64,000 nucleotides of DNA from assembly GCA_965206845.1 (NCBI GenBank), contig OZ242221.1, positions 1,024,001 through 1,088,000 on the forward strand, given 5' to 3'. Source of the DNA: Cenarchaeum sp. (GTDB lineage: Archaea > Thermoproteota > Nitrososphaeria > Nitrososphaerales > Nitrosopumilaceae). Below the pieces are notes generated by a model that was not told the origin of the DNA, made no database searches, and saw only the letters and a program-made list of their open reading frames with translations. Position numbers and translations under genes: made by a program. Of this stretch, positions 25,606 through 55,767 are shown one piece after another (position 1 is the first letter of the stretch; each line of letters begins with the position of its first letter).

Positions 25606-25731
25606 GGGAATTATATACTTCGGTTACAGAACCGTTGCCTTTTTCTGGTGCTCTGTCGATCCCTCCCACTCGTGGCTCTTGCGTGATGTCTGTGGAGCGG
25701 ACTGGGCAGCCCTGTCATGGAATCCCGCGCC
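25606..25731 (-). repeat. Inverted copy of element right end / candidate second omegaRNA scaffold
   Basis: Reverse complement aligns to 27425-27551. Confidence 0.85.
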
Positions 25732-25840
25732 AGGCAGGCGACAAGGATGGCTATGACGGTATGGACAGTCTGCATGGTCTGCATACTAATGACAGTGTTG
25801 CCGCGGCGCTTTTATGCGGTGTGGCATATTGCATGCGGTA

Positions 25841-27715
25841 ATGAAATCAATCGATATGGTGGCAACGGCGCTGGTAACGGTACCGGCGCCAGAAGCGAAA
25901 GCGAAACCGGCAAGGGAGGACACGGTGATCCGCACAATAAAGGTGGACTTTGGCCAGTCCGTGGCGCTGTCAGAGCTCATATCGCGCCTCATTGTGCAGC
26001 AGCGGTGGGCATACAACGTGGCCGTAGAGGAGATGCTGAATGACCCGACAGTAAGCAAATTTGATCTCAACAACAAGCTCACCGCGTGGAGGCAGAAGCA
26101 CGACTGGCTTGACGGCAACGTCTCTGTGCAACGGGCCGGGCTTGCCCAGGGAAGGGATGCCGTGCTGAAGTTTCTGGAATCAAACACTACAAAGCGCGCC
26201 CGCAGGATCATGTGGAAAGACAAATCCAAGAAATATAGAGAAAATAAAACGGAAAAAAATGACAAGAGGCTCAGGGAAGACGGAGATGGCGCCGGCGCAA
26301 ACCTGTCCCTGACCCCATGGAGTGGCAGAAAGAACAGGTGGAGCCACGAAAGCGACCTGTACAGGGCAAGGGGCGACAGGCAGGCGCTGTGTGTGTTTGG
26401 AAAGCCCGTGCAAAAGGACAACAACAGGATCATGCTACCGGGCATCGGCACAGTAGGCGTGCACGGCGAGATGATGGAATGGGACATGCGATCCTTCCAG
26501 CTTGTGGAGACAACCAAAAGGATCACCAGGCGCACCAGGGACCGCGACCGGACATACCGCCTCCACGTCAATGTCCGCATCAGAAAGCCCCGACCGGTGG
26601 AGTGTGATATAGTCCGTGGTGTCGACATGGGGATTGTCCACAACGCGACAACTGTGGACCTTGACACAGGCTACACGGAGTTCCACGACATGCCCAAGGA
26701 CTGCAGGAGGTCAAAGAACGATGAGGTATCGCGGATGCAGGCGGAGCTCTCAAGGAAGCGTGGAGGCAGCGGCAACCGGCGCATCAGGCAGAATGGTAAA
26801 GGCGACTGTCCCGGCAATGCCAGCATCAACGGCGGCACCAATGGGGACGGGAACGGCAGTAACAGCAAGCCGGGCAAATCGGGCAAGCAATGCAAGACCG
26901 TCGGGCCGAACCGCATCAACAGAAAGGCCAAGCGCGACAGGCCAAGGAAGCCCAAATCACGAAGTTACAAGGATCTGCAAAGGAAGATACAAAAAAAGCG
27001 GGAAAAGGTCGCCAACCGCCAGACGAACTGGGAGCGCCACGCGTCAAAGAAGATAGCCGACGGCGCCGGCACGGTGGCCATCGAGGATCTGAATATCAAA
27101 AACATGACGGCCAGGGCCAAAGGCAGTGGAAGCTCCGCCAAGAACGGCCTCAACCGCGAGATGGCATACTCCAGGCCGGGGACGTTCCAAAGGCGGATCG
27201 AGGGCGCATGCGCGAACGCCGGCGTGAAGGTAATCTCCGTTTATCCGGGGGGCACGAGCACCACATGCTACATGTGCGGCCGCAGGGACAAAGGCTCCCG
27301 CGTGTCGCAGGCCGAGTTCATATGCACGAATCACAAATGCGAATGCCACATCAACGCGGACGTCAATGCCGCGTATAACATTGCCGCCAGGGCGGCGGCA
27401 GGGCGGCGGGGAACGTCGTCCAAAGGCGCGAGATTCCAGGCCGGGATTGCTCCCGGACGCTCCGCAAACAACACGCAAGAGCCACGCGTGGGAGGGATCG
27501 CCGGAGCGCCAGAAAAAGGCAACGGTTCTGTAACCGAAGTATATAATTCCCTAAATAGGCTTCAAAACAATAGATCAGCAAGGTGTCCATGGGAGAAGAC
27601 TATCCGGAGTATGGTGAGGAGATCGGGTCCGCAGAGGTGCCAGAGGCAGACCCCTACAATTCCGACGTATTTGCAGAACCGGGACAGGCTCGGCACGATC
27701 CGGATATGGATCTGA
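25841..27715 (+). CDS. tnpB: Large TnpB-like RNA-guided endonuclease (copy 1)
   Basis: RWAYN, RuvC-I RGVDMG, RuvC-II IEDL, CYMC..C...C Zn finger, RuvC-III NADVNAAYNI; reads through the TIR. Confidence 0.88.
   Translation: MKSIDMVATALVTVPAPEAKAKPAREDTVIRTIKVDFGQSVALSELISRLIVQQRWAYNVAVEEMLNDPTVSKFDLNNKLTAWRQKHDWLDGNVSVQRAGLAQGRDAVLKFLESNTTKRARRIMWKDKSKKYRENKTEKNDKRLREDGDGAGANLSLTPWSGRKNRWSHESDLYRARGDRQALCVFGKPVQKDNNRIMLPGIGTVGVHGEMMEWDMRSFQLVETTKRITRRTRDRDRTYRLHVNVRIRKPRPVECDIVRGVDMGIVHNATTVDLDTGYTEFHDMPKDCRRSKNDEVSRMQAELSRKRGGSGNRRIRQNGKGDCPGNASINGGTNGDGNGSNSKPGKSGKQCKTVGPNRINRKAKRDRPRKPKSRSYKDLQRKIQKKREKVANRQTNWERHASKKIADGAGTVAIEDLNIKNMTARAKGSGSSAKNGLNREMAYSRPGTFQRRIEGACANAGVKVISVYPGGTSTTCYMCGRRDKGSRVSQAEFICTNHKCECHINADVNAAYNIAARAAAGRRGTSSKGARFQAGIAPGRSANNTQEPRVGGIAGAPEKGNGSVTEVYNSLNRLQNNRSARCPWEKTIRSMVRRSGPQRCQRQTPTIPTYLQNRDRLGTIRIWI
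27390..27551 (+). ncRNA. Candidate omegaRNA scaffold (copy 1 right end)
   Basis: Conserved among three copies with covarying hairpins; location expected for TnpB guide RNAs; 5' boundary approximate. Confidence 0.6.
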
Positions 27716-28530: not shown

Positions 28531-28712
28531 CTGCGATCCGCCGGGCTCTCGCTGCGCGCCCCCCGCACACGGCAGCCCCATGCCAAAAAACTCAATTAGG
28601 AACGTGGCGGGGTTAGGGCGCGGGCATTGATGAGCATATCCCTCTGATTGGTGATGTGGATCTTGAGTTCTGAGCCTGCTGATTTTTATGGCAGACCGCG
28701 CATGCGGCAGGT

Positions 28713-29132
28713 GTGAAATCGCTGACACGGTACCTCAGATACGAGACAAAGACCCGCAGGGAGTTCGTCAACATAACGCCGGAGGTCGAGGCACTGGTCA
28801 GGGAGAGCGGGATCCGGGAGGGGCTCTGCCTGGTCAACGCGATGCACATCACTGCCAGCGTCTTCATCAACGATGACGAGGGCGGGCTCCACCGCGATTA
28901 TGAGCAGTGGCTTGAGGGGCTCGCCCCGCACGAGCCCACAGACGCGTACCTGCACAACCGGACCGGCGAGGACAACGCGGACGCCCACCTGAAGCGGCAG
29001 GTCATGGGCAGGGAGGTCGTCGTGGCGGTTACGGGCGGCGCGCTGGACTTCGGCCCGTGGGAGCAGATCTTCTACGGTGAGTTTGACGGAAGGAGATCCA
29101 AGCGCGTGCTGGTGAAGATAATCGGCGAGTGA
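28713..29132 (+). CDS. YjbQ/UPF0047 family protein
   Basis: [25 protein letters not shown]. Confidence 0.92.
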
Positions 29133-29133
29133 C

Positions 29134-29298
29134 CTATCCAAAGTCCACGTCGCGCTTCTGGCTCTGCCCCTCGTTCTTCCTGGCTGCCGCGCGAAACTTG
29201 TCGCTGTGGTTTTGTGGCCCGTGGCCGCACTTTACGCAGGCAATGAGGTACCCGTTGGTGTTCTTCTGGTATGTCTCGCAACCGCAAAAGCAGGCCAT
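29134..29298 (-). CDS. Small Cys/His metal-binding protein (54 aa; not in ORF track)
   Basis: MACFCGCETYQKNTNGYLIACVKCGHGPQNH...; TATA-like GATATATC ~24 nt upstream. Confidence 0.65.
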   Translation of the reverse strand: MACFCGCETYQKNTNGYLIACVKCGHGPQNHSDKFRAAARKNEGQSQKRDVDFG

Positions 29299-29338
29299 GT
29301 GATCTGCTGGAGTGCCGGTTGATATATCTCTTGAGAAA

Positions 29339-29500
29339 GGGAATTATATACATGAGTGTACAGTACCCATGCCTTTTGCTGGCGCTCTTGCATTGCCTCC
29401 CACGCTTGGCTCTCGCGTGTTGTTTGCGGAACGCGCGGGAGCAATCCCGCGCTGGCTTCTCGCGCCTTCAGACGACGATCCCCGCCGCCCTGCCGCCAAG
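29339..29500 (-). ncRNA. Candidate omegaRNA scaffold (copy 2 right end)
   Basis: Hairpins GCGCGGGA-TTGC-TCCCGCGC and CATGGGT...ACTCATG abutting TIR; 5' boundary approximate. Confidence 0.6.
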
Positions 29501-31113
29501 GCTTTCGCCTTGGAAGCAATGTTATGCGCCGCGTTTATGTCGGCGTTGACGTCATTGTAACAGTTGTCATTGGTGCAGCGGAACCTGCCCTGCGATGTGC
29601 GGGATTCCTTGTCCTTGCGCCCACAAGCGCTGCATGTTATGCTGGTGCCCTTGGGGTCCACCATAATTACAGTCACTCCGGCGTTCGCGCACGCCTGCCC
29701 GATCTGCTTTTGGAACGTTCCGGGCCGGGAATAGGCCATCTCCCTGTTTAGCCCCGTCTTGGCGGATCTTCCCTTGCCTTTGACCTTGGCGGTCATGTTG
29801 TTTAGGTTGAGATCCTCCATGGCCACGGTTCTGGCGCCATCGGCTATCTTCTTTGACGCGTGCCTTTCCCAGTTGGTCTGGCGGTTGGCTATCTTCTCGC
29901 GCTTCTTGCGGATCTTCCTTTGGAGTTCCTTATAGCTGCGGGACTTTGGCTTCCTTGTCTTGTTTTTGTTGTGGCCTCTGGTGTTGTTGGTGTTGCTGCT
30001 GCTGCCGCTTCTCGTGTTGTTGGTGCTGCTGCTGCCGCCGCTGCCGTTGGTGCCGTTCCCGAAGTCCGCGTCCTTGCTCCCGCCACCAGAGTCTTCATTG
30101 GTGTCCTGCCTGATCCTGCGGTTGCCCCTCCCGCCGCGCTTCTGAGAGAGCTCGGAGTACATCCTGGACAGGTCGTCGTCCTTGGAGCGCCTGCAGTCCT
30201 TTGGGAGGTCGTGAAATTTATGATGGCCGGTGCCGAGGTCTGCCGTGGCGGCGCCGTGGACTATGCCCATGTCCACGCCCCTTACGACCGCGGATTCAGA
30301 CGGCTCCGGGGCCTTGGTTTCGACCTGGATGTGGAGGCGGTACGTCCTGTTATGGTTCTCCGTGCGCTTCGTGGCCCTCTTCGTCGTCTCCACCAATTGG
30401 AATGATCGCATGTCCAATTTCTCCACGTCGCCGCGCACTCTCACGGTGCCGATTCCCGGTAGCATCACCATGTTGTCGCCTTTGTATACTGGCTTCTCAA
30501 ACACCGAGAGTGACCGCTGCTCCCCTTTCCTCTTGAACAGGTCATTGGTGTGGCTCCATTCGTTCCTCTTGTTGCTCCACTTGTTTGACGGCAGGTTTGA
30601 CGCGGTGTAGATGTCGATGTCCGGTATCCCCTCCTTTTCCCGGTCCCGTCTGGCCAGGTGTTTCCACAGGGACTTGTTGCTGCGCTTTTTCCCGTTGGAT
30701 GCCATGAACTTCTTTACGGCGTCCATGCCCAGCAGGAGGCCGGCCCTCTGCACCATGCAGCTGCAGGCCTCATTGCGTCCGGCGGCCCGCGCCTCCTTGT
30801 CATGGACGAGCCACGCCTTTGAGTTTCTCCATTTCGTTAGCATGTTGTTGAGGTCAAACTTGGTTGTCCTCGGGTCTTTCAGCTTCCCGCGCACGGCCAT
30901 GTTGAAGGCCCACCTCTGCTGGTCCATGTGGCGGGATATGAGATCCGACAGCTCCGCCGACTGGTCAAAGTCCACCTTTATGTTGCGGACCATTATGCCT
31001 TCCATTGAGCGTTTTGACCACTTTTTTGGAGCCGGCTCGGTCGCGGCAGCGGTTGCATCTGCTACCGCCGGCTCCGTTGCTGTTATTGCCGTTGCCGTCA
31101 TGATGGGTTTCAT
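29344..31113 (-). CDS. tnpB: Large TnpB-like RNA-guided endonuclease (copy 2)
   Basis: RGVDMG / MEDL / CSAC..C...C / NADINAAHNI; stop codon TAA lies inside the TIR. Confidence 0.9.
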   Translation of the reverse strand: MKPIMTATAITATEPAVADATAAATEPAPKKWSKRSMEGIMVRNIKVDFDQSAELSDLISRHMDQQRWAFNMAVRGKLKDPRTTKFDLNNMLTKWRNSKAWLVHDKEARAAGRNEACSCMVQRAGLLLGMDAVKKFMASNGKKRSNKSLWKHLARRDREKEGIPDIDIYTASNLPSNKWSNKRNEWSHTNDLFKRKGEQRSLSVFEKPVYKGDNMVMLPGIGTVRVRGDVEKLDMRSFQLVETTKRATKRTENHNRTYRLHIQVETKAPEPSESAVVRGVDMGIVHGAATADLGTGHHKFHDLPKDCRRSKDDDLSRMYSELSQKRGGRGNRRIRQDTNEDSGGGSKDADFGNGTNGSGGSSSTNNTRSGSSSNTNNTRGHNKNKTRKPKSRSYKELQRKIRKKREKIANRQTNWERHASKKIADGARTVAMEDLNLNNMTAKVKGKGRSAKTGLNREMAYSRPGTFQKQIGQACANAGVTVIMVDPKGTSITCSACGRKDKESRTSQGRFRCTNDNCYNDVNADINAAHNIASKAKALAAGRRGSSSEGARSQRGIAPARSANNTREPSVGGNARAPAKGMGTVHSCI

Positions 31114-31137
31114 TACCGCATGCAAATGCCAAATATG

Positions 31138-31145
31138 TATAAAAA
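31138..31145 (-). promoter_or_regulatory. TATA box of tnpB copy 2
   Basis: TTTTTATA 24 nt upstream of ATG; equivalent boxes in copies 1 and 3. Confidence 0.6.
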
Positions 31146-31518
31146 CACCGTGGCAATACCATGCAGACCATGCGGACCGTCCGTGCCGTCACGGCCATCA
31201 GGGAGTGGCAGGTTGCAGGCGCCCAGATGGGAGTGGATACTGTGTGGAGAGACCCGAACAAAAACCCTATCCGAGGGCAGCGTATGGCCATGTTTGCCGT
31301 ATATGATTCCCCGCGCCAGGGACGGAAAAACATGAACGGGACAACCCTGCCGGCCATACTAGAGGGGCATTCCGATCTCTTTGACAACAGAAACAGGACA
31401 TATCGCTTGGATCAACAGGCACTGCGGTTTGCATGCAGACGTTCACTCAACTATATAATCCCCTTGAGAAACGGCCCGCCCGCCACAAGTTCATATCCTG
31501 CGTCGGCGTACCCGATCC

Positions 31519-31740
31519 ATGGACTGGCTTATGGGAGGCATTGCAATCATTCTGCTCGTGGTGGGCCTGGTGGGCCAGGCGTTTGAGATGCGAAGGATCA
31601 GGATATCGACAACCCAGGAGGGAGAGCTGGGCTCCCCCAACATATTTACGGATCGGCGCAATTTCAAGTGGTATGCGCTGATAGGCACGGGAGTCATACT
31701 CTGGTATGTGGCAGAGCAGATCCCGCCCATCTCTATATAG
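31519..31740 (+). CDS. Small two-TM membrane protein
   Basis: 73 aa with two hydrophobic helices. Confidence 0.7.
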   Translation: MDWLMGGIAIILLVVGLVGQAFEMRRIRISTTQEGELGSPNIFTDRRNFKWYALIGTGVILWYVAEQIPPISI

Positions 31741-31945
31741 ATCACATCTATATATCGGACACGCGCATGTATGACAGAGCGTGTTTTGGGTAACGCCGAT
31801 CCGATTCTAGACGATGGATCAAGAACAAACCCTAGTATTGGCATCGTGGGTTGCAAAACCCCGACGCCACTTTATACTTTGCAGGCGCGCACTCCAGAAT
31901 GCCGCATGGCACGATGAACCCCATCATGCAGTGGACGGTGCCGCT

Positions 31946-51028: not shown

Positions 51029-51724
51029 GATACACAAAACAAAAAGGCCGTATATACGCTTTATCCAACGAATGGCCCTGTCCAAAAGGGAGGAGTTAGG
51101 CCTCCAGCTCTGCCGGCCCGGCTGCCACCGGAACCGTCAAAGCCGGAGACCCAGCTTCTCCTTTCTGTACAGGGCCGCCAGCATCACGTACAATATAGAT
51201 CTGTCCGTATTGTCCAAATATTGTCTAAGCCGATACGCCTGGGATGGTTTGGTTTGGGAATTATATAGTTAAGTGAACTGCCGGCGCCGCCACACGGCCG
51301 TGGCCTCCCGTCCCGGCCGATCATGCGGTTCGGCAGACCGGTCTTCCCGGTTCCAGACCGGCCGGCGGCTGTCCGGGTTTTTTGACGCCGACCTGCATCC
51401 CGGGGCAGGCAGGAGCCCCGGAAAGCTACGGCTTTGTTGCGCCTTTCATATAGGCAAATGCCGGATCCATACTTGGGATGCAGTCTCAGACCGATCCGGC
51501 ATTGTAAGACGAGAATTGCATTCAAAAGCGGCCAAAACCCGTCCTTTTCGGGCTTTTTGTTCCGAGAGCCGTTCATGCGCGATGCCGGCCCGGCGCCAGT
51601 GAAGGCCTGAAACGCGCCGGCAGGCGCAGCGGAAATGACGGACGTGACAGTGCGGACGGTCCGCACGGCCGGAGCGGCACCGCCATATCTCCTTTTTATA
51701 TTCGGCAGGTATTTGCATGCGGTA

Positions 51725-53413
51725 ATGAAACCCATCATGGCAACCGCAATTGCGACAACGGTAGCGGCAACAGCAACGGCAACCGAGCCGGCACCAAAAA
51801 AGTGGTCAAAGCGCTCAATAGATGGCACCATGATGCGCACCATAAAGGTGGACTTTGATCAGTCGGCCGAGATGTCGGATCTCATATCGCGCCACATGGA
51901 CCAGCAGAGGTGGGCGTTCAACATGGCCGTCAAGGAGAAGCTGAAAGACCCCAGGACGACAAAGTTTGACCTCAACAACATGCTCACAGGATGGAGAAAC
52001 GGAAAGAAGTGGATGAATGGCGGCTTCCTTGCGCAGAGGGCCGGCCTCCTGCTGGGCTTGGACGCGGTAAAGAAGTTTATGGACTCCAACGGCAAAAAGC
52101 GCCGCAACAAGTCATTATGGAAATACCTGGCCAGGCGCCACAGGGAAAGGGAGGGCATCAATGACATCGACATCAACACAGCGCCCAACCTGCCGTCCAA
52201 CAGGTGGAGCAACAAGAGGAACAAATGGACCCACACCAATGACCTGTTCAAGAGGAAGGGGGAGCAGCTGTCCCTCTCGGTGTTCGCGAAGCCGGTGCAT
52301 AAGGGCAACAACATGGTGATGCTCCCCGACATAGGCACCGTAAAAGTGCACGGCGACGTGGAGGGGCTCGACATGCGATCCTTTCAGCTGGTGGAGACGA
52401 CGAAGAGGACCACGAAGCGCACCGAAAGCCACAACAGGACGTACAGACTCCACATCCAGATCAGGACAAAGGCGCCGGAGCCCGCGGAATCCGACACCAT
52501 ACGCGGCATCGACATGGGAATCGTCCACGGCGCCGCCACCGTCGACCTAGATACCGGCCGCCACGCGTTTCATGACCTCCCAAAGGACTGCAGGAGGGCC
52601 AAGGACGACGACCTGTCCAGGATGTACTCCGAGCTCTCACGGAAGCGCGGCGGGAGGGGCAACCGCAGGATCAGGCAGGACACCAAGGAGGGCGCGGACT
52701 GCGGGAACGGAGCCAACGATAAAGATAACGGTAACGGCGGCGGCAACACGAGCGGCAGCATCGGCAATAACAACACGCACGGCCACAAAAAAAACAAGCC
52801 GAGGAAACCAAAGTCAAGAAGCTACAAGGAACTCCAAAGGAAGATCAGGAAAAAGAGGGAAAAGCTTGCCAACCGCCAGACGAACTGGGAAAGGCACGCG
52901 TCAAAGAAGATAGCCGATGGCGCTGGCACAGTGGTCATGGAGGACTTGGACCTCGTGAACATGACTGCAAGGGCCAAGGGAAAGGGCAGCTCCGCCAAGA
53001 CCGGGCTCAACCGCGAGATGGCCTATTCCCGGCCCGGCACGTTCCAGCGCCAGATCGGGCAGGCGTGCGCGAACGCCGGGGTGACCGTCATAATGGTGGA
53101 TCCCAAGGGCACGAGCATCACATGCCACCAGTGCGGCCGCGAGGACGGGAACTCCCGCGTGTCGCAGGGCAGATTCAAATGCGCCAATGACAACTGTTAC
53201 AATGACGTCAACGCGGACATCAATGCCGCGTATAATATTGCCTCCAAGGCGAAAGCCGTGGCGGCAGGGCGGCGGGGATCGTCGTCTGAAGGCGCGAGAA
53301 GCCAGCGCGGGATTGCTCCCGCGCGTTCCGCAAACAGCACGCGAGAGCCAAGCGTGGGAGGCAATGCAAGAGCGCCAGCAAAAGACATGGGTGCTGTACA
53401 CTCATGTATATAA
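51725..53413 (+). CDS. tnpB: Large TnpB-like RNA-guided endonuclease (copy 3)
   Basis: RGIDMG / MEDL / CHQC..C...C / NADINAAYNI; TTTTTATA 24 nt upstream; stop in TIR. Confidence 0.9.
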   Translation: MKPIMATAIATTVAATATATEPAPKKWSKRSIDGTMMRTIKVDFDQSAEMSDLISRHMDQQRWAFNMAVKEKLKDPRTTKFDLNNMLTGWRNGKKWMNGGFLAQRAGLLLGLDAVKKFMDSNGKKRRNKSLWKYLARRHREREGINDIDINTAPNLPSNRWSNKRNKWTHTNDLFKRKGEQLSLSVFAKPVHKGNNMVMLPDIGTVKVHGDVEGLDMRSFQLVETTKRTTKRTESHNRTYRLHIQIRTKAPEPAESDTIRGIDMGIVHGAATVDLDTGRHAFHDLPKDCRRAKDDDLSRMYSELSRKRGGRGNRRIRQDTKEGADCGNGANDKDNGNGGGNTSGSIGNNNTHGHKKNKPRKPKSRSYKELQRKIRKKREKLANRQTNWERHASKKIADGAGTVVMEDLDLVNMTARAKGKGSSAKTGLNREMAYSRPGTFQRQIGQACANAGVTVIMVDPKGTSITCHQCGREDGNSRVSQGRFKCANDNCYNDVNADINAAYNIASKAKAVAAGRRGSSSEGARSQRGIAPARSANSTREPSVGGNARAPAKDMGAVHSCI

Positions 53414-53418
53414 TTCCC
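53258..53418 (+). ncRNA. Candidate omegaRNA scaffold (copy 3 right end)
   Basis: Near-identical to copy 2 tail; terminal hairpin ACATGGGTG-CTGTA-CACTCATGT; 5' boundary approximate. Confidence 0.6.
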
Positions 53419-55735: not shown

Positions 55736-55767
55736 GGTGTTACTGTATGTAATTCCCTATTAAAACG

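What the first reader, a model, noticed from the sequence alone, without database searches (positions are those of the whole stretch)
29331..31471. TnpB nuclease packaged in a TIR/TSD (DDE-type) transposon instead of IS200/605 ends: type example of a three-copy family
Seen: the 2125-bp element is bounded by 23-bp imperfect TIRs (GGGAATTATATACATGAGTGTAC / GGGGATTATATAGTTGAGTGAAC) and flanked by a perfect 8-bp duplication TTGAGAAA. Its only convincing gene is a ~590-aa TnpB with RuvC D/E/D residues and Zn finger intact. The same ends bound copies at 25606-27551 and 51256-53418. Established: TnpB normally rides in IS200/IS605 (Y1) or IS607 (serine) elements, which have no TIRs and make no TSD. 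An 8-bp TSD with ends ggnnatTAT matches my recollection of the IS1595 family ISNwi1 subgroup (needs verifying). Inference: a non-autonomous DDE-type element has captured an RNA-guided nuclease and is mobilised in trans, a prokaryotic parallel to Fanzor capture by eukaryotic TIR transposons. Casposon-type ends (GGGGATATA...) are a weaker alternative because their TSDs are usually longer.
Basis: partly seen in the sequence, partly recalled or inferred. Interest (0 to 1): 0.92.

Follow-up and report, generated by a model that had tools for sequence, protein, structure and literature searches.

The report
TnpB cargo in IS1595-type transposon
A sponge-associated ammonia-oxidising archaeon carries many copies of a cut-and-paste-style transposon whose only cargo is an RNA-guided nuclease (TnpB) and its guide-RNA scaffold, a rare but already reported arrangement, here with an unusually clear record of empty and filled sites.

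Summary
The element at 29339-31463 has imperfect inverted ends and a perfect 8-bp duplication. Contigs from other samples carry the same site empty, joined exactly at those ends.

The complete 1.65-Mb genome holds 16 paired elements, 10 of them with perfect 8-bp duplications. A 99%-identical strain has a further copy where this genome has the empty site.

The cargo is an intact TnpB. Next to it lies a ~160-nt structured RNA region with compensatory base changes that ends 11 nt from the right terminus.

The genome has no Y1 TnpA, serine recombinase or Cas1. The same GGGAATTA... termini lie 53-65 nt upstream of IS1595-family transposase genes in this genome and its relatives. I therefore read it as a non-autonomous IS1595-type element moved in trans.

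DDE-associated TnpBs with inverted ends and solo copies were already described in 2023 (PMC10691335). This scan had already reached the same reading for another copy in this genome.

One point looks new: the base just 5' of the duplication on the tnpB-upstream side is G in 17 of 20 elements, with no mirror bias. That looks like a TAM.

The parts
29331..29338 (.). Target-site duplication, left copy (TTGAGAAA)
   Evidence: Read directly; present once in empty alleles.
29339..29361 (+). Terminal inverted repeat at the tnpB 3' side ('right end' in tnpB sense)
   Evidence: The tnpB stop codon lies inside it.
29339..29513 (-). Omega-RNA-like structured region: 7 helices, the last ending 11 nt from the terminus. 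It overlaps the last ~55 codons of the open frame.
   Evidence: Alignment A2 of 15 copies: 95.9% of cells paired against 36-54% when partners are slid; 46 double-change cells against 2-7. Covariance model R1 finds the motif ending at the right terminus in other genera. No Rfam family.
29344..31113 (-). tnpB, 589 aa from the ATG of MKPIM (the listed open frame starts at a TTG at 31125)
   Evidence: [quoted passage not shown] The RuvC-I motif is invariant in alignment A1.
31134..31145 (-). A/T-rich TATA-box-like stretch about 21-32 nt upstream of the ATG (inferred promoter)
   Evidence: Read. The archaeal TATA consensus is recalled, not tested.
31441..31463 (-). Terminal inverted repeat at the tnpB 5' side ('left end')
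31464..31471 (.). Target-site duplication, right copy (TTGAGAAA)
31472..31472 (-). G (on the tnpB strand) immediately 5' of the duplication: candidate TAM position
   Evidence: G in 17 of 20 oriented elements; mirror position C in 5 of 20.
25606..27551 (+). Copy 1: 1946 bp, 95-nt inverted ends, tnpB frame from about 25841 that runs on through the right end, flanks agree at only 5 of 8
27377..27551 (+). Omega-RNA-like region of copy 1
   Evidence: Row 'copy1' of alignment A2.
51256..53418 (+). Copy 3: 2163 bp, intact tnpB (about 51725-53413), no duplication (1 of 8)
53244..53418 (+). Omega-RNA-like region of copy 3
   Evidence: Row 'copy3' of alignment A2.

Best explanation
The element is a non-autonomous transposon with the ends and the 8-bp target duplication of the IS1595 family of DDE transposons. 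Its cargo is a complete OMEGA module: an apparently active TnpB nuclease plus its guide-RNA scaffold.

Shown here:
- Copies are bounded by GGGAATTATATA... inverted repeats.
- Insertion duplicates 8 bp of A/T-rich target.
- Filled and empty alleles coexist in natural populations.
- IS1595-family transposase genes in the same archaeal family sit behind the same termini.
- A conserved structured RNA on the tnpB sense strand ends 11 nt from the right terminus.

Inferred:
- An IS1595-family transposase supplied in trans binds the shared termini and moves the element.
- Transcription through the right end adds flank sequence to the scaffold as a guide, so the first 8 guide bases are the duplicated target.
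- The TnpB-RNA complex then recognises the unoccupied allele (G, then the 8-bp target, then the right flank) and cuts it. Repair from an occupied copy restores or spreads the element.
- The occupied junctions escape: the right one has C where the G is needed, and the left one matches only 8 bases.
For: Ends and duplications:
- 48 hits to the terminal 12-mer in the genome form 16 pairs. 10 have a perfect 8-bp duplication and 2 more have 7 of 8.
- Empty alleles exist for copy 2 and for a 4167-bp copy in a 99%-identical strain.
- Duplicated sequences are 69% A+T in a 57% G+C genome. IS1595-family ISApl4 makes A/T-rich 8-bp repeats (PMC12561309, abstract and passages).

Transposase link:
- The genome has one intact IS1595-family gene (PF12762 117 bits; NF033547 160 bits). 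It has a 16-of-23 end match 53 nt upstream.
- A decayed second copy lies 52-63 nt behind an exact solo terminus.
- In 8 loci from 3 genomes the terminus lies 53-65 nt upstream of the transposase start.
- Two IS1595 insertion sequences in G080 have both ends starting GGGAATTA.
- One G018 element holds a decayed IS1595 gene and a tnpB 3' part between such ends.

Other mobilisers:
- No Y1 TnpA, resolvase-type serine recombinase or Cas1 in the genome.
- A nested IS66 element has its own different ends and its own duplication.

Cargo:
- TnpB motifs are intact.
- RNA covariation. Invariant G-U pairs point to the sense strand.
- The RNA model matches 18 places in 33 loci of other genera. Where a TIR was mapped, the full-length matches end at the right terminus.
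- The same ends and 8-bp duplications surround TnpBs only 35-44% identical in other genera.

TAM-like bias:
- G at -1 in 17 of 20 elements (13 of 13 in the close clade). Binomial p = 2.4e-7.
- Mirror position C in 5 of 20. Fisher p = 3.3e-4.
Against: - No TnpB element here contains a transposase, and mobilisation in trans was not tested.
- The one intact IS1595 gene in this genome has a diverged end (16 of 23) and no second end was found.
- For the transposase-bearing copies in G018 I could not find convincing second ends or duplications.
- Copies within this genome are only 59-83% identical at protein level, so there was no recent burst. About 7 of 16 copies keep an uninterrupted frame.
- 3 of 7 elements from other genera lack the G. 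A one-base TAM would be unusually short.
- No RNA ends were seen. The RNA-library data are contigs and cannot show a transcript.
- A DDE excision already leaves a break, so the benefit of TnpB is less obvious than in IS200/IS605. The review PMC13565253 makes this point.
Confidence: 0.78

Rival explanations
1. The orientation-specific G is not a TAM. It reflects an intrinsically asymmetric target preference of the transposase, or another orientation-dependent selection. In that case TnpB here is a passenger with no role in the element's retention.
For: 3 of 7 elements from other genera lack the G. The first base of the duplication is T in 13 of 20 and the last is A in 9 of 20, a weak mirror-symmetric preference that the transposase could impose. 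The own-genome IS1595 pseudogene end and the L094 end also have G at that place.
Against: Elements with perfectly symmetric ends of 23-30 nt still have the G only on the tnpB-upstream side. The mirror position shows no C enrichment, 5 of 20. 0 of 6 transposase-bearing copies in G018/G016 have G at the transposase-proximal side (counted by eye).
Confidence: 0.3
2. The elements are moved by a DDE transposase other than IS1595 that makes 8-bp duplications (for example IS66-type), and the resemblance to IS1595 ends is coincidental.
For: IS66-family genes are present, and one lies inside a TnpB element in L046. The single intact IS1595 gene in this genome has diverged ends.
Against: The IS66 element has its own ends (GTAAC...) and its own 8-bp duplication inside the TnpB element's left end, so it is a nested insertion. 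The GGGAATTA termini lie at a fixed 53-65 nt from IS1595 gene starts in 8 loci of 3 genomes and on both sides of two IS1595 elements. In this genome every terminus pair encloses tnpB or a fragment of it.
Confidence: 0.07
3. It is an IS200/IS605 (IS1341-type) or IS607 element, or a casposon, whose ends only look like inverted repeats.
For: TnpB is normally found in IS200/IS605 and IS607 elements (PMC4810608 and PMC13565253, passages read).
Against: 8-bp duplications and empty sites with a single copy of the target. No Y1 TnpA, serine recombinase or Cas1 in the complete genome. No shared 4-5-nt target motif next to the left end.
Confidence: 0.02
4. TnpB itself is the transposase, so the element is autonomous.
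For: Every copy carries only tnpB. Older annotation called it a transposase.
Against: TnpB is an RNA-guided RuvC nuclease not required for transposition (established knowledge; PMC13565253 passage). Staggered 8-bp duplications and short inverted ends are the signature of DDE transposases. The same ends occur around IS1595 transposase genes without tnpB.
Confidence: 0.03

Closest known systems
DDE-transposase-associated TnpB branches (DDE-1 to DDE-6) of Altae-Tran et al. 2023, PNAS (PMC10691335; passages read, supplement not seen)
   Same: TnpB in a transposon with inverted terminal repeats. The tnpB 3' end lies within 250 bp of a transposon end. Solo TnpBs carry ends like those of transposase-bearing relatives and are inferred to move in trans.
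   Different: The text I could read names only IS630 for DDE-6. The 2026 review names ISL2, IS630 and IS1031 (PMC13565253). IS1595 is not named in either. Here no intact element with both genes was found, and the evidence includes empty alleles and an orientation-specific flank base.
IS1595 family insertion sequences (for example ISApl4, PMC12561309; the ISNwi1 subgroup and its members with passenger genes are recalled from ISfinder and Siguier et al. 2009, not seen)
   Same: Short inverted ends, A/T-rich 8-bp duplications, and a transposase with an N-terminal zinc ribbon and a DDE domain (PF12760, PF12762, NF033547). The recalled ISNwi1 end consensus fits GGGAATTAT.
   Different: The window elements carry no transposase. 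Their cargo is an RNA-guided nuclease and its RNA. In some copies the left end is a 24-95-nt inverted copy of the right end.
Fanzor nucleases in eukaryotic TIR transposons (PMC10530073; search listing and abstract only)
   Same: A TnpB-family nuclease carried by transposons that have inverted ends and make duplications, so part of the duplication adjoins the TAM or guide.
   Different: Archaeal host, typical prokaryotic TnpB motifs. No link to the Fanzor clades was tested.
IS1341-type solo TnpB elements of IS200/IS605
   Same: tnpB is the only gene, and the guide-RNA scaffold overlaps the 3' end of the gene and reaches the right end.
   Different: Those have no inverted ends and no duplication, insert next to a 4-5-nt motif, and depend on a Y1 TnpA. 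All four were tested here and not met.

Membership tests
IS1595-family-derived non-autonomous transposon | Termini shared with elements that encode an IS1595-family transposase | tested here: met
   GGGAATTATATA-type terminus 53-65 nt upstream of IS1595 genes in 8 loci of 3 genomes. Both ends start GGGAATTA in L094 and L092.
IS1595-family-derived non-autonomous transposon | 8-bp target-site duplication, A/T-rich | tested here: met
   10 of 16 pairs perfect, 2 more with 7 of 8. Single copy in empty alleles. 69% A+T. Family property from PMC12561309.
IS1595-family-derived non-autonomous transposon | IS1595 DDE transposase available in the genome | tested here: met
   One intact 309-aa gene at G000:C1:27524-28453 (PF12762 117 bits, NF033547 160 bits). 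Its own end is diverged (16 of 23).
IS1595-family-derived non-autonomous transposon | Actual mobilisation by that transposase | not testable with these tools
   Needs a transposition assay.
IS1595 family, ISNwi1 subgroup | Subgroup end consensus and transposase phylogeny | not testable with these tools
   The consensus is recalled. No held paper gives it. No ISfinder access.
TnpB / OMEGA system | RuvC D-E-D residues and zinc finger | tested here: met
   Invariant GVDMG, EDLN, CxxC..CxxC and NADxNAA motifs in alignment A1. RuvC-II, the finger and RuvC-III align to solved chains 9j09_A and 9nzq_A. NF040570 110 bits.
TnpB / OMEGA system | Structured guide-RNA scaffold at the tnpB 3' end reaching the transposon end | tested here: met
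   (covariation, sense-strand G-U pairs, ends at the terminus). This is in silico only; no transcript was seen.
TnpB / OMEGA system | Guide from the flank and a TAM next to the target | tested here: inconclusive
   G 5' of the duplication in 17 of 20 elements against a mirror C in 5 of 20 fits a TAM. No cleavage or RNA-end data.
IS200/IS605 (IS1341 group) | No inverted ends, no duplication, Y1 TnpA partner, insertion next to a 4-5-nt motif | tested here: not met
   Inverted ends and duplications. PF01797 absent. No shared motif beyond one base.
IS607 | Serine recombinase TnpA, no inverted ends, no duplication | tested here: not met
   PF00239 absent. Ends and duplications as above.
Casposon | Cas1-family integrase (casposase) | tested here: not met
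   PF01867 absent from the complete genome.
DDE-1 to DDE-6 TnpB branches (PMC10691335) | Placement of this protein in one of those tree branches | not testable with these tools
   The tree and tables are in the supplement, which could not be opened.

The most novel reading that the evidence does not exclude
The strict, orientation-specific G next to the duplication is the TAM of this TnpB, and the first 8 bases of its guide are the target-site duplication itself. If so, the nuclease is programmed against the unoccupied allele of a DDE/TIR transposon. Only insertions that land beside a TAM in the right orientation would persist. This would be a population-genomic signature that RNA-guided homing works outside IS200/IS605/IS607. 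The filled and empty alleles needed to test it are already in public sponge metagenomes.
Probability: 0.4. Interest if true: 0.75.

Novelty: new member of a known kind. Interest (0 to 1): 0.5.

Why it matters
Why a TnpB would help a DDE transposon is an open point. The 2026 review notes that DDE excision already leaves a break and that such associations are rare in prokaryotes (PMC13565253).

This family offers a clean natural case:
- many independent insertions with exact boundaries;
- empty and filled alleles in the same species-level population;
- a conserved guide-RNA scaffold that abuts the end;
- a one-sided flank bias that a TAM would explain.

It also supplies a compact archaeal TnpB-RNA pair with a predicted scaffold and a predicted minimal TAM for testing. 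It adds IS1595 to the transposase families seen with TnpB, unless the unseen supplement of PMC10691335 already lists it.

Tried and rejected
- **Wider sequence scans.** The genome-contig scan with alignment A1 gave one locus only. The JGI metagenome scan gave none. Wider sampling therefore rests on the genome search: 9 of 401 family genomes at E <= 1e-20.
- **Second ends of transposase-bearing copies in G018/G302.** Best local inverted matches scored 18-24 and looked like chance, except L094.
- **Ends of the intact own-genome IS1595 gene.** Only one end was found.
- **Why copies 1 and 3 lack duplications.** I looked by eye through the end list for partner flanks that an inversion between copies would leave, and found none. 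This is unexplained.
- **Rfam.** No family over the elements at E <= 1.
- **RNA evidence.** In two RNA-library runs of one study, contigs cover 29370-29556 at word depths of 940 and 346. The tnpB body has 0-147. These are contigs, the region is repeated about 16 times, DNA may be present in the libraries, and the tool says depth cannot rank parts. I draw nothing from it.
- **IS66 as mobiliser.** Rejected.
- **Casposon, IS200/IS605, IS607.** Rejected.
- **Literature.** TnpB + IS1595 found 9 papers, none relevant by title or abstract. ISNwi1 found 2 papers, both irrelevant. TnpB + Nitrosopumil + transposon + sponge found nothing relevant in the 12 listed. The supplement list of PMC10691335 could not be opened, so whether its DDE branches include IS1595 stays open.
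- **11.65-kb segment in G016.** It is bounded by these ends but proved to hold housekeeping genes. I do not count it as one element.
Full report
**1. The observation**

The stretch 29331-31471 reads, on the + strand: TTGAGAAA, a terminal repeat starting GGGAATTATATA, about 2.1 kb, the inverted repeat, then TTGAGAAA again. The terminal 12-mer, allowing one mismatch, occurs 9 times in the window against 0.08 expected by shuffling. Copy 1 has inverted ends of 95 nt at 93%.

All three copies hold a long open frame that matches the Cas12f1-like TNB domain and OrfB_IS605. For copy 2, NCBIfam guided_TnpB scores above its cut-off. Only copy 2 of the three has a duplication.

**2. The family in the genome**

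The window lies in a complete single-contig genome of 1.65 Mb and 57% G+C. The 12-mer has 48 hits there, and 32 of them form 16 pairs 0.7-2.6 kb apart. The flanking 8 bases compare as follows:

| Identity of the two flanking 8-mers | Pairs (of 16) |
|---|---|
| 8 of 8 | 10 |
| 7 of 8 | 2 |
| 6 of 8 | 1 |
| 5 of 8 | 1 |
| 3 of 8 or fewer | 2 |

A search with the protein finds 27 matching stretches, all at these places. About 7 copies have an uninterrupted frame and the others are split or carry stops. Copies are 59-83% identical as proteins, so this is an old, diversified family and not a recent burst.

**3. Empty sites**

A contig from a 99%-identical strain carries a 4167-bp copy with the duplication TAACGTAG. 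The record labels this contig as a Dehalococcoidia MAG. In this genome the same place has TAACGTAG once and no element.

For copy 2 itself I laid four public runs on 29000-31800:
- Two runs have a contig that joins 29329 to 31463, skipping 2133 bases (the element plus one duplication). The joint can slide by 9.
- A third run joins 29338 to 31474 with six letters between, on flanks without a single difference.
- The fourth run shows no joint.

**4. What moves it**

The genome has no Y1 TnpA, no resolvase-type serine recombinase and no Cas1, and the control genomes do ring for each family. That excludes IS200/IS605, IS607 and casposon mobilisation from within this genome.

It has one intact IS1595-family transposase gene (PF12762, PF12760, NF033547). 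Fifty-three nt upstream of its start lies a sequence matching the element's end at 16 of 23 positions, and no second end was found. A decayed second IS1595 gene lies just inside an exact solo terminus.

In relatives G018 and G016 the same terminus sits 53-65 nt upstream of IS1595 gene starts. Together with the two own-genome loci that makes 8 loci in 3 genomes. In the complete genome G080, two IS1595 elements have both ends starting GGGAATTA. One 1.46-kb element in G018 holds a decayed IS1595 gene followed by the 3' part of a tnpB between such ends.

An IS66-family gene inside the strain's 4.2-kb copy is a nested insertion with its own different ends and its own 8-bp duplication.

An IS1595-family element described in print makes A/T-rich 8-bp repeats (PMC12561309). 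The duplications here are 69% A+T. The match to the ISNwi1 subgroup end consensus is recalled and could not be checked.

**5. The cargo**

The catalytic motifs of TnpB are invariant among six full copies. The RuvC-II, zinc-finger and RuvC-III parts align to solved TnpB/Cas12f chains.

The last 175 nt before the right terminus were aligned for 15 copies. RNAalifold predicts seven helices, and 11 of 42 pairs have compensatory changes. On the named structure, 95.9% of cells pair against 36-54% when partners are slid. There are 46 double-change cells against 2-7 in the slid controls. Several invariant G-U pairs mean the fold exists only on the tnpB sense strand. The last helix ends 11 nt from the terminus.

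A covariance model built from these copies gives 18 matches in 33 loci from other genera. In the loci where I had mapped a TIR, the full-length matches end at the right terminus. On that alignment 31 of 42 pairs show compensatory change, though the alignment is fitted to the model. No Rfam family matches. This is what a guide-RNA scaffold of TnpB looks like, but no transcript was seen.

**6. Spread**

- The 90%-identity collection holds 134 clusters at E <= 1e-10, and the 120 listed are at least 53% identical to the query.
- The 50%-identity library holds only one full-length representative above 50% identity, then 440-520-aa relatives at 30-47%.
- In the family-wide genome search, 9 of 401 genomes in 3 of 27 genera match at E <= 1e-20.
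- Among 17 loci from those genomes, 6 show terminus pairs around a 450-470-aa TnpB. The duplication is 8 of 8 in three, 7 of 8 in two and offset in one.

The link between this TnpB lineage and these ends is therefore old and spans genera.

**7. A one-sided flank bias**

I oriented every element by tnpB and kept those with a duplication of at least 7 of 8. That left 20 unique elements out of 36 candidate pairs, the rest being duplicates.

| Position (tnpB sense) | Count | Test |
|---|---|---|
| Base just 5' of the left duplication is G | 17 of 20 (13 of 13 in the close clade) | Binomial p = 2.4e-7 at a G frequency of 0.285 |
| Mirror position after the right duplication is C | 5 of 20 | Fisher p = 3.3e-4 against the row above |
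| Base before the G is A | 1 of 20 | none |
| First duplicated base | T in 13 of 20, never G | none |

Three further copies in this genome with poor duplications, left out of that count, also have the G. Elements with perfectly symmetric ends of 23-30 nt show the bias too, so the ends themselves cannot tell the two sides apart.

The only oriented functional part is the nuclease-RNA module. If the guide starts at the terminus, the empty allele presents G, then the duplicated 8 bases, then the right flank. That is a TAM-plus-target arrangement. The occupied right junction has C at that place.

I regard this as the best reading (about 0.4-0.5), but 3 of 7 elements from other genera lack the G and a one-base TAM is unusual.

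**8. Comparison with what is known**

IS200/IS605 and IS607 have neither inverted ends nor duplications (PMC4810608, PMC13565253; passages).

Altae-Tran et al. 2023 reported six TnpB branches linked to DDE transposases. All have inverted terminal repeats, the tnpB 3' end lies near an end, and solo TnpBs have matching ends and are inferred to move in trans (PMC10691335, passages). The 2026 review names ISL2, IS630 and IS1031 as the DDE partners and discusses why such links are rare.

IS1595 is named in neither text, and the supplement could not be opened. My searches for TnpB with IS1595 found nothing relevant.

I tested it independently here.

**9. Verdict**

It belongs to a kind described in 2023, so the novelty claimed (0.92) is too high.

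What this locus adds:
- a probable new partner family (IS1595);
- direct empty-site proof;
- a conserved scaffold that ends at the terminus;
- the one-sided G.

Interest is moderate. It would be higher if the TAM reading is borne out.

Noticed in passing
L046:1836-3822 (contig of a 99%-identical strain): An IS66-family element (443-aa transposase) is nested in the left end of a TnpB element, with its own GTAAC... ends and its own 8-bp duplication. The same copy also holds a 145-bp repeat present at about 20 places in this genome and a 230-bp repeat present at about 5 places, the latter splitting tnpB.
   Followed up: partly
L046 (record title): The contig is labelled as a Dehalococcoidia MAG, but its flanks are 99% identical to this archaeal genome over 5.4 kb. 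It is probably a mis-binned contig.
   Followed up: partly
L069 (G016:C133:176-11827): An 11.65-kb segment is bounded by inverted GGGGATTATATA ends and a 7-bp direct repeat. It has a truncated IS1595 gene at one end and housekeeping genes inside (thermosome, sodium:solute symporter, arginase-family). It may be a composite transposon or the product of an inversion.
   Followed up: partly
L018 (G018:C69:1314-2771): A 1.46-kb element between IS1595-type ends holds a decayed IS1595 transposase gene followed directly by the 3' part of a tnpB and its RNA region. It could be a remnant of an element with both genes, or a recombinant.
   Followed up: partly
window 31300-31311 (- strand): A second terminus-like 12-mer (one mismatch) lies 152 nt inside the left end of copy 2. 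This suggests a tandem or replaced left end.
   Followed up: no
window 55746-55757 (- strand): A solo terminus-like 12-mer (one mismatch) with no partner or tnpB nearby; probably a remnant.
   Followed up: no
window 28623-28676 (+): Weak match to archaeal C/D-box small RNA models (32.9 bits, below the gathering score of 45), between copies 1 and 2.
   Followed up: no
window 25606-27551 and 51256-53418: Copies 1 and 3 have good ends but no duplication (5 of 8 and 1 of 8). No partner flanks that would indicate an inversion between copies were found.
   Followed up: partly
G080:C1:1710543-1710860 (in L112): A 318-bp element with the same termini and flanks agreeing at 6 of 8. It is a miniature derivative without tnpB.
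   Followed up: no
G000:C1:26.1-27.5 kb (L001:1060-1320): Downstream of the intact IS1595 gene lies a cluster of short direct and inverted repeats (24-28 nt, 81-89%) of unknown meaning.
   Followed up: no
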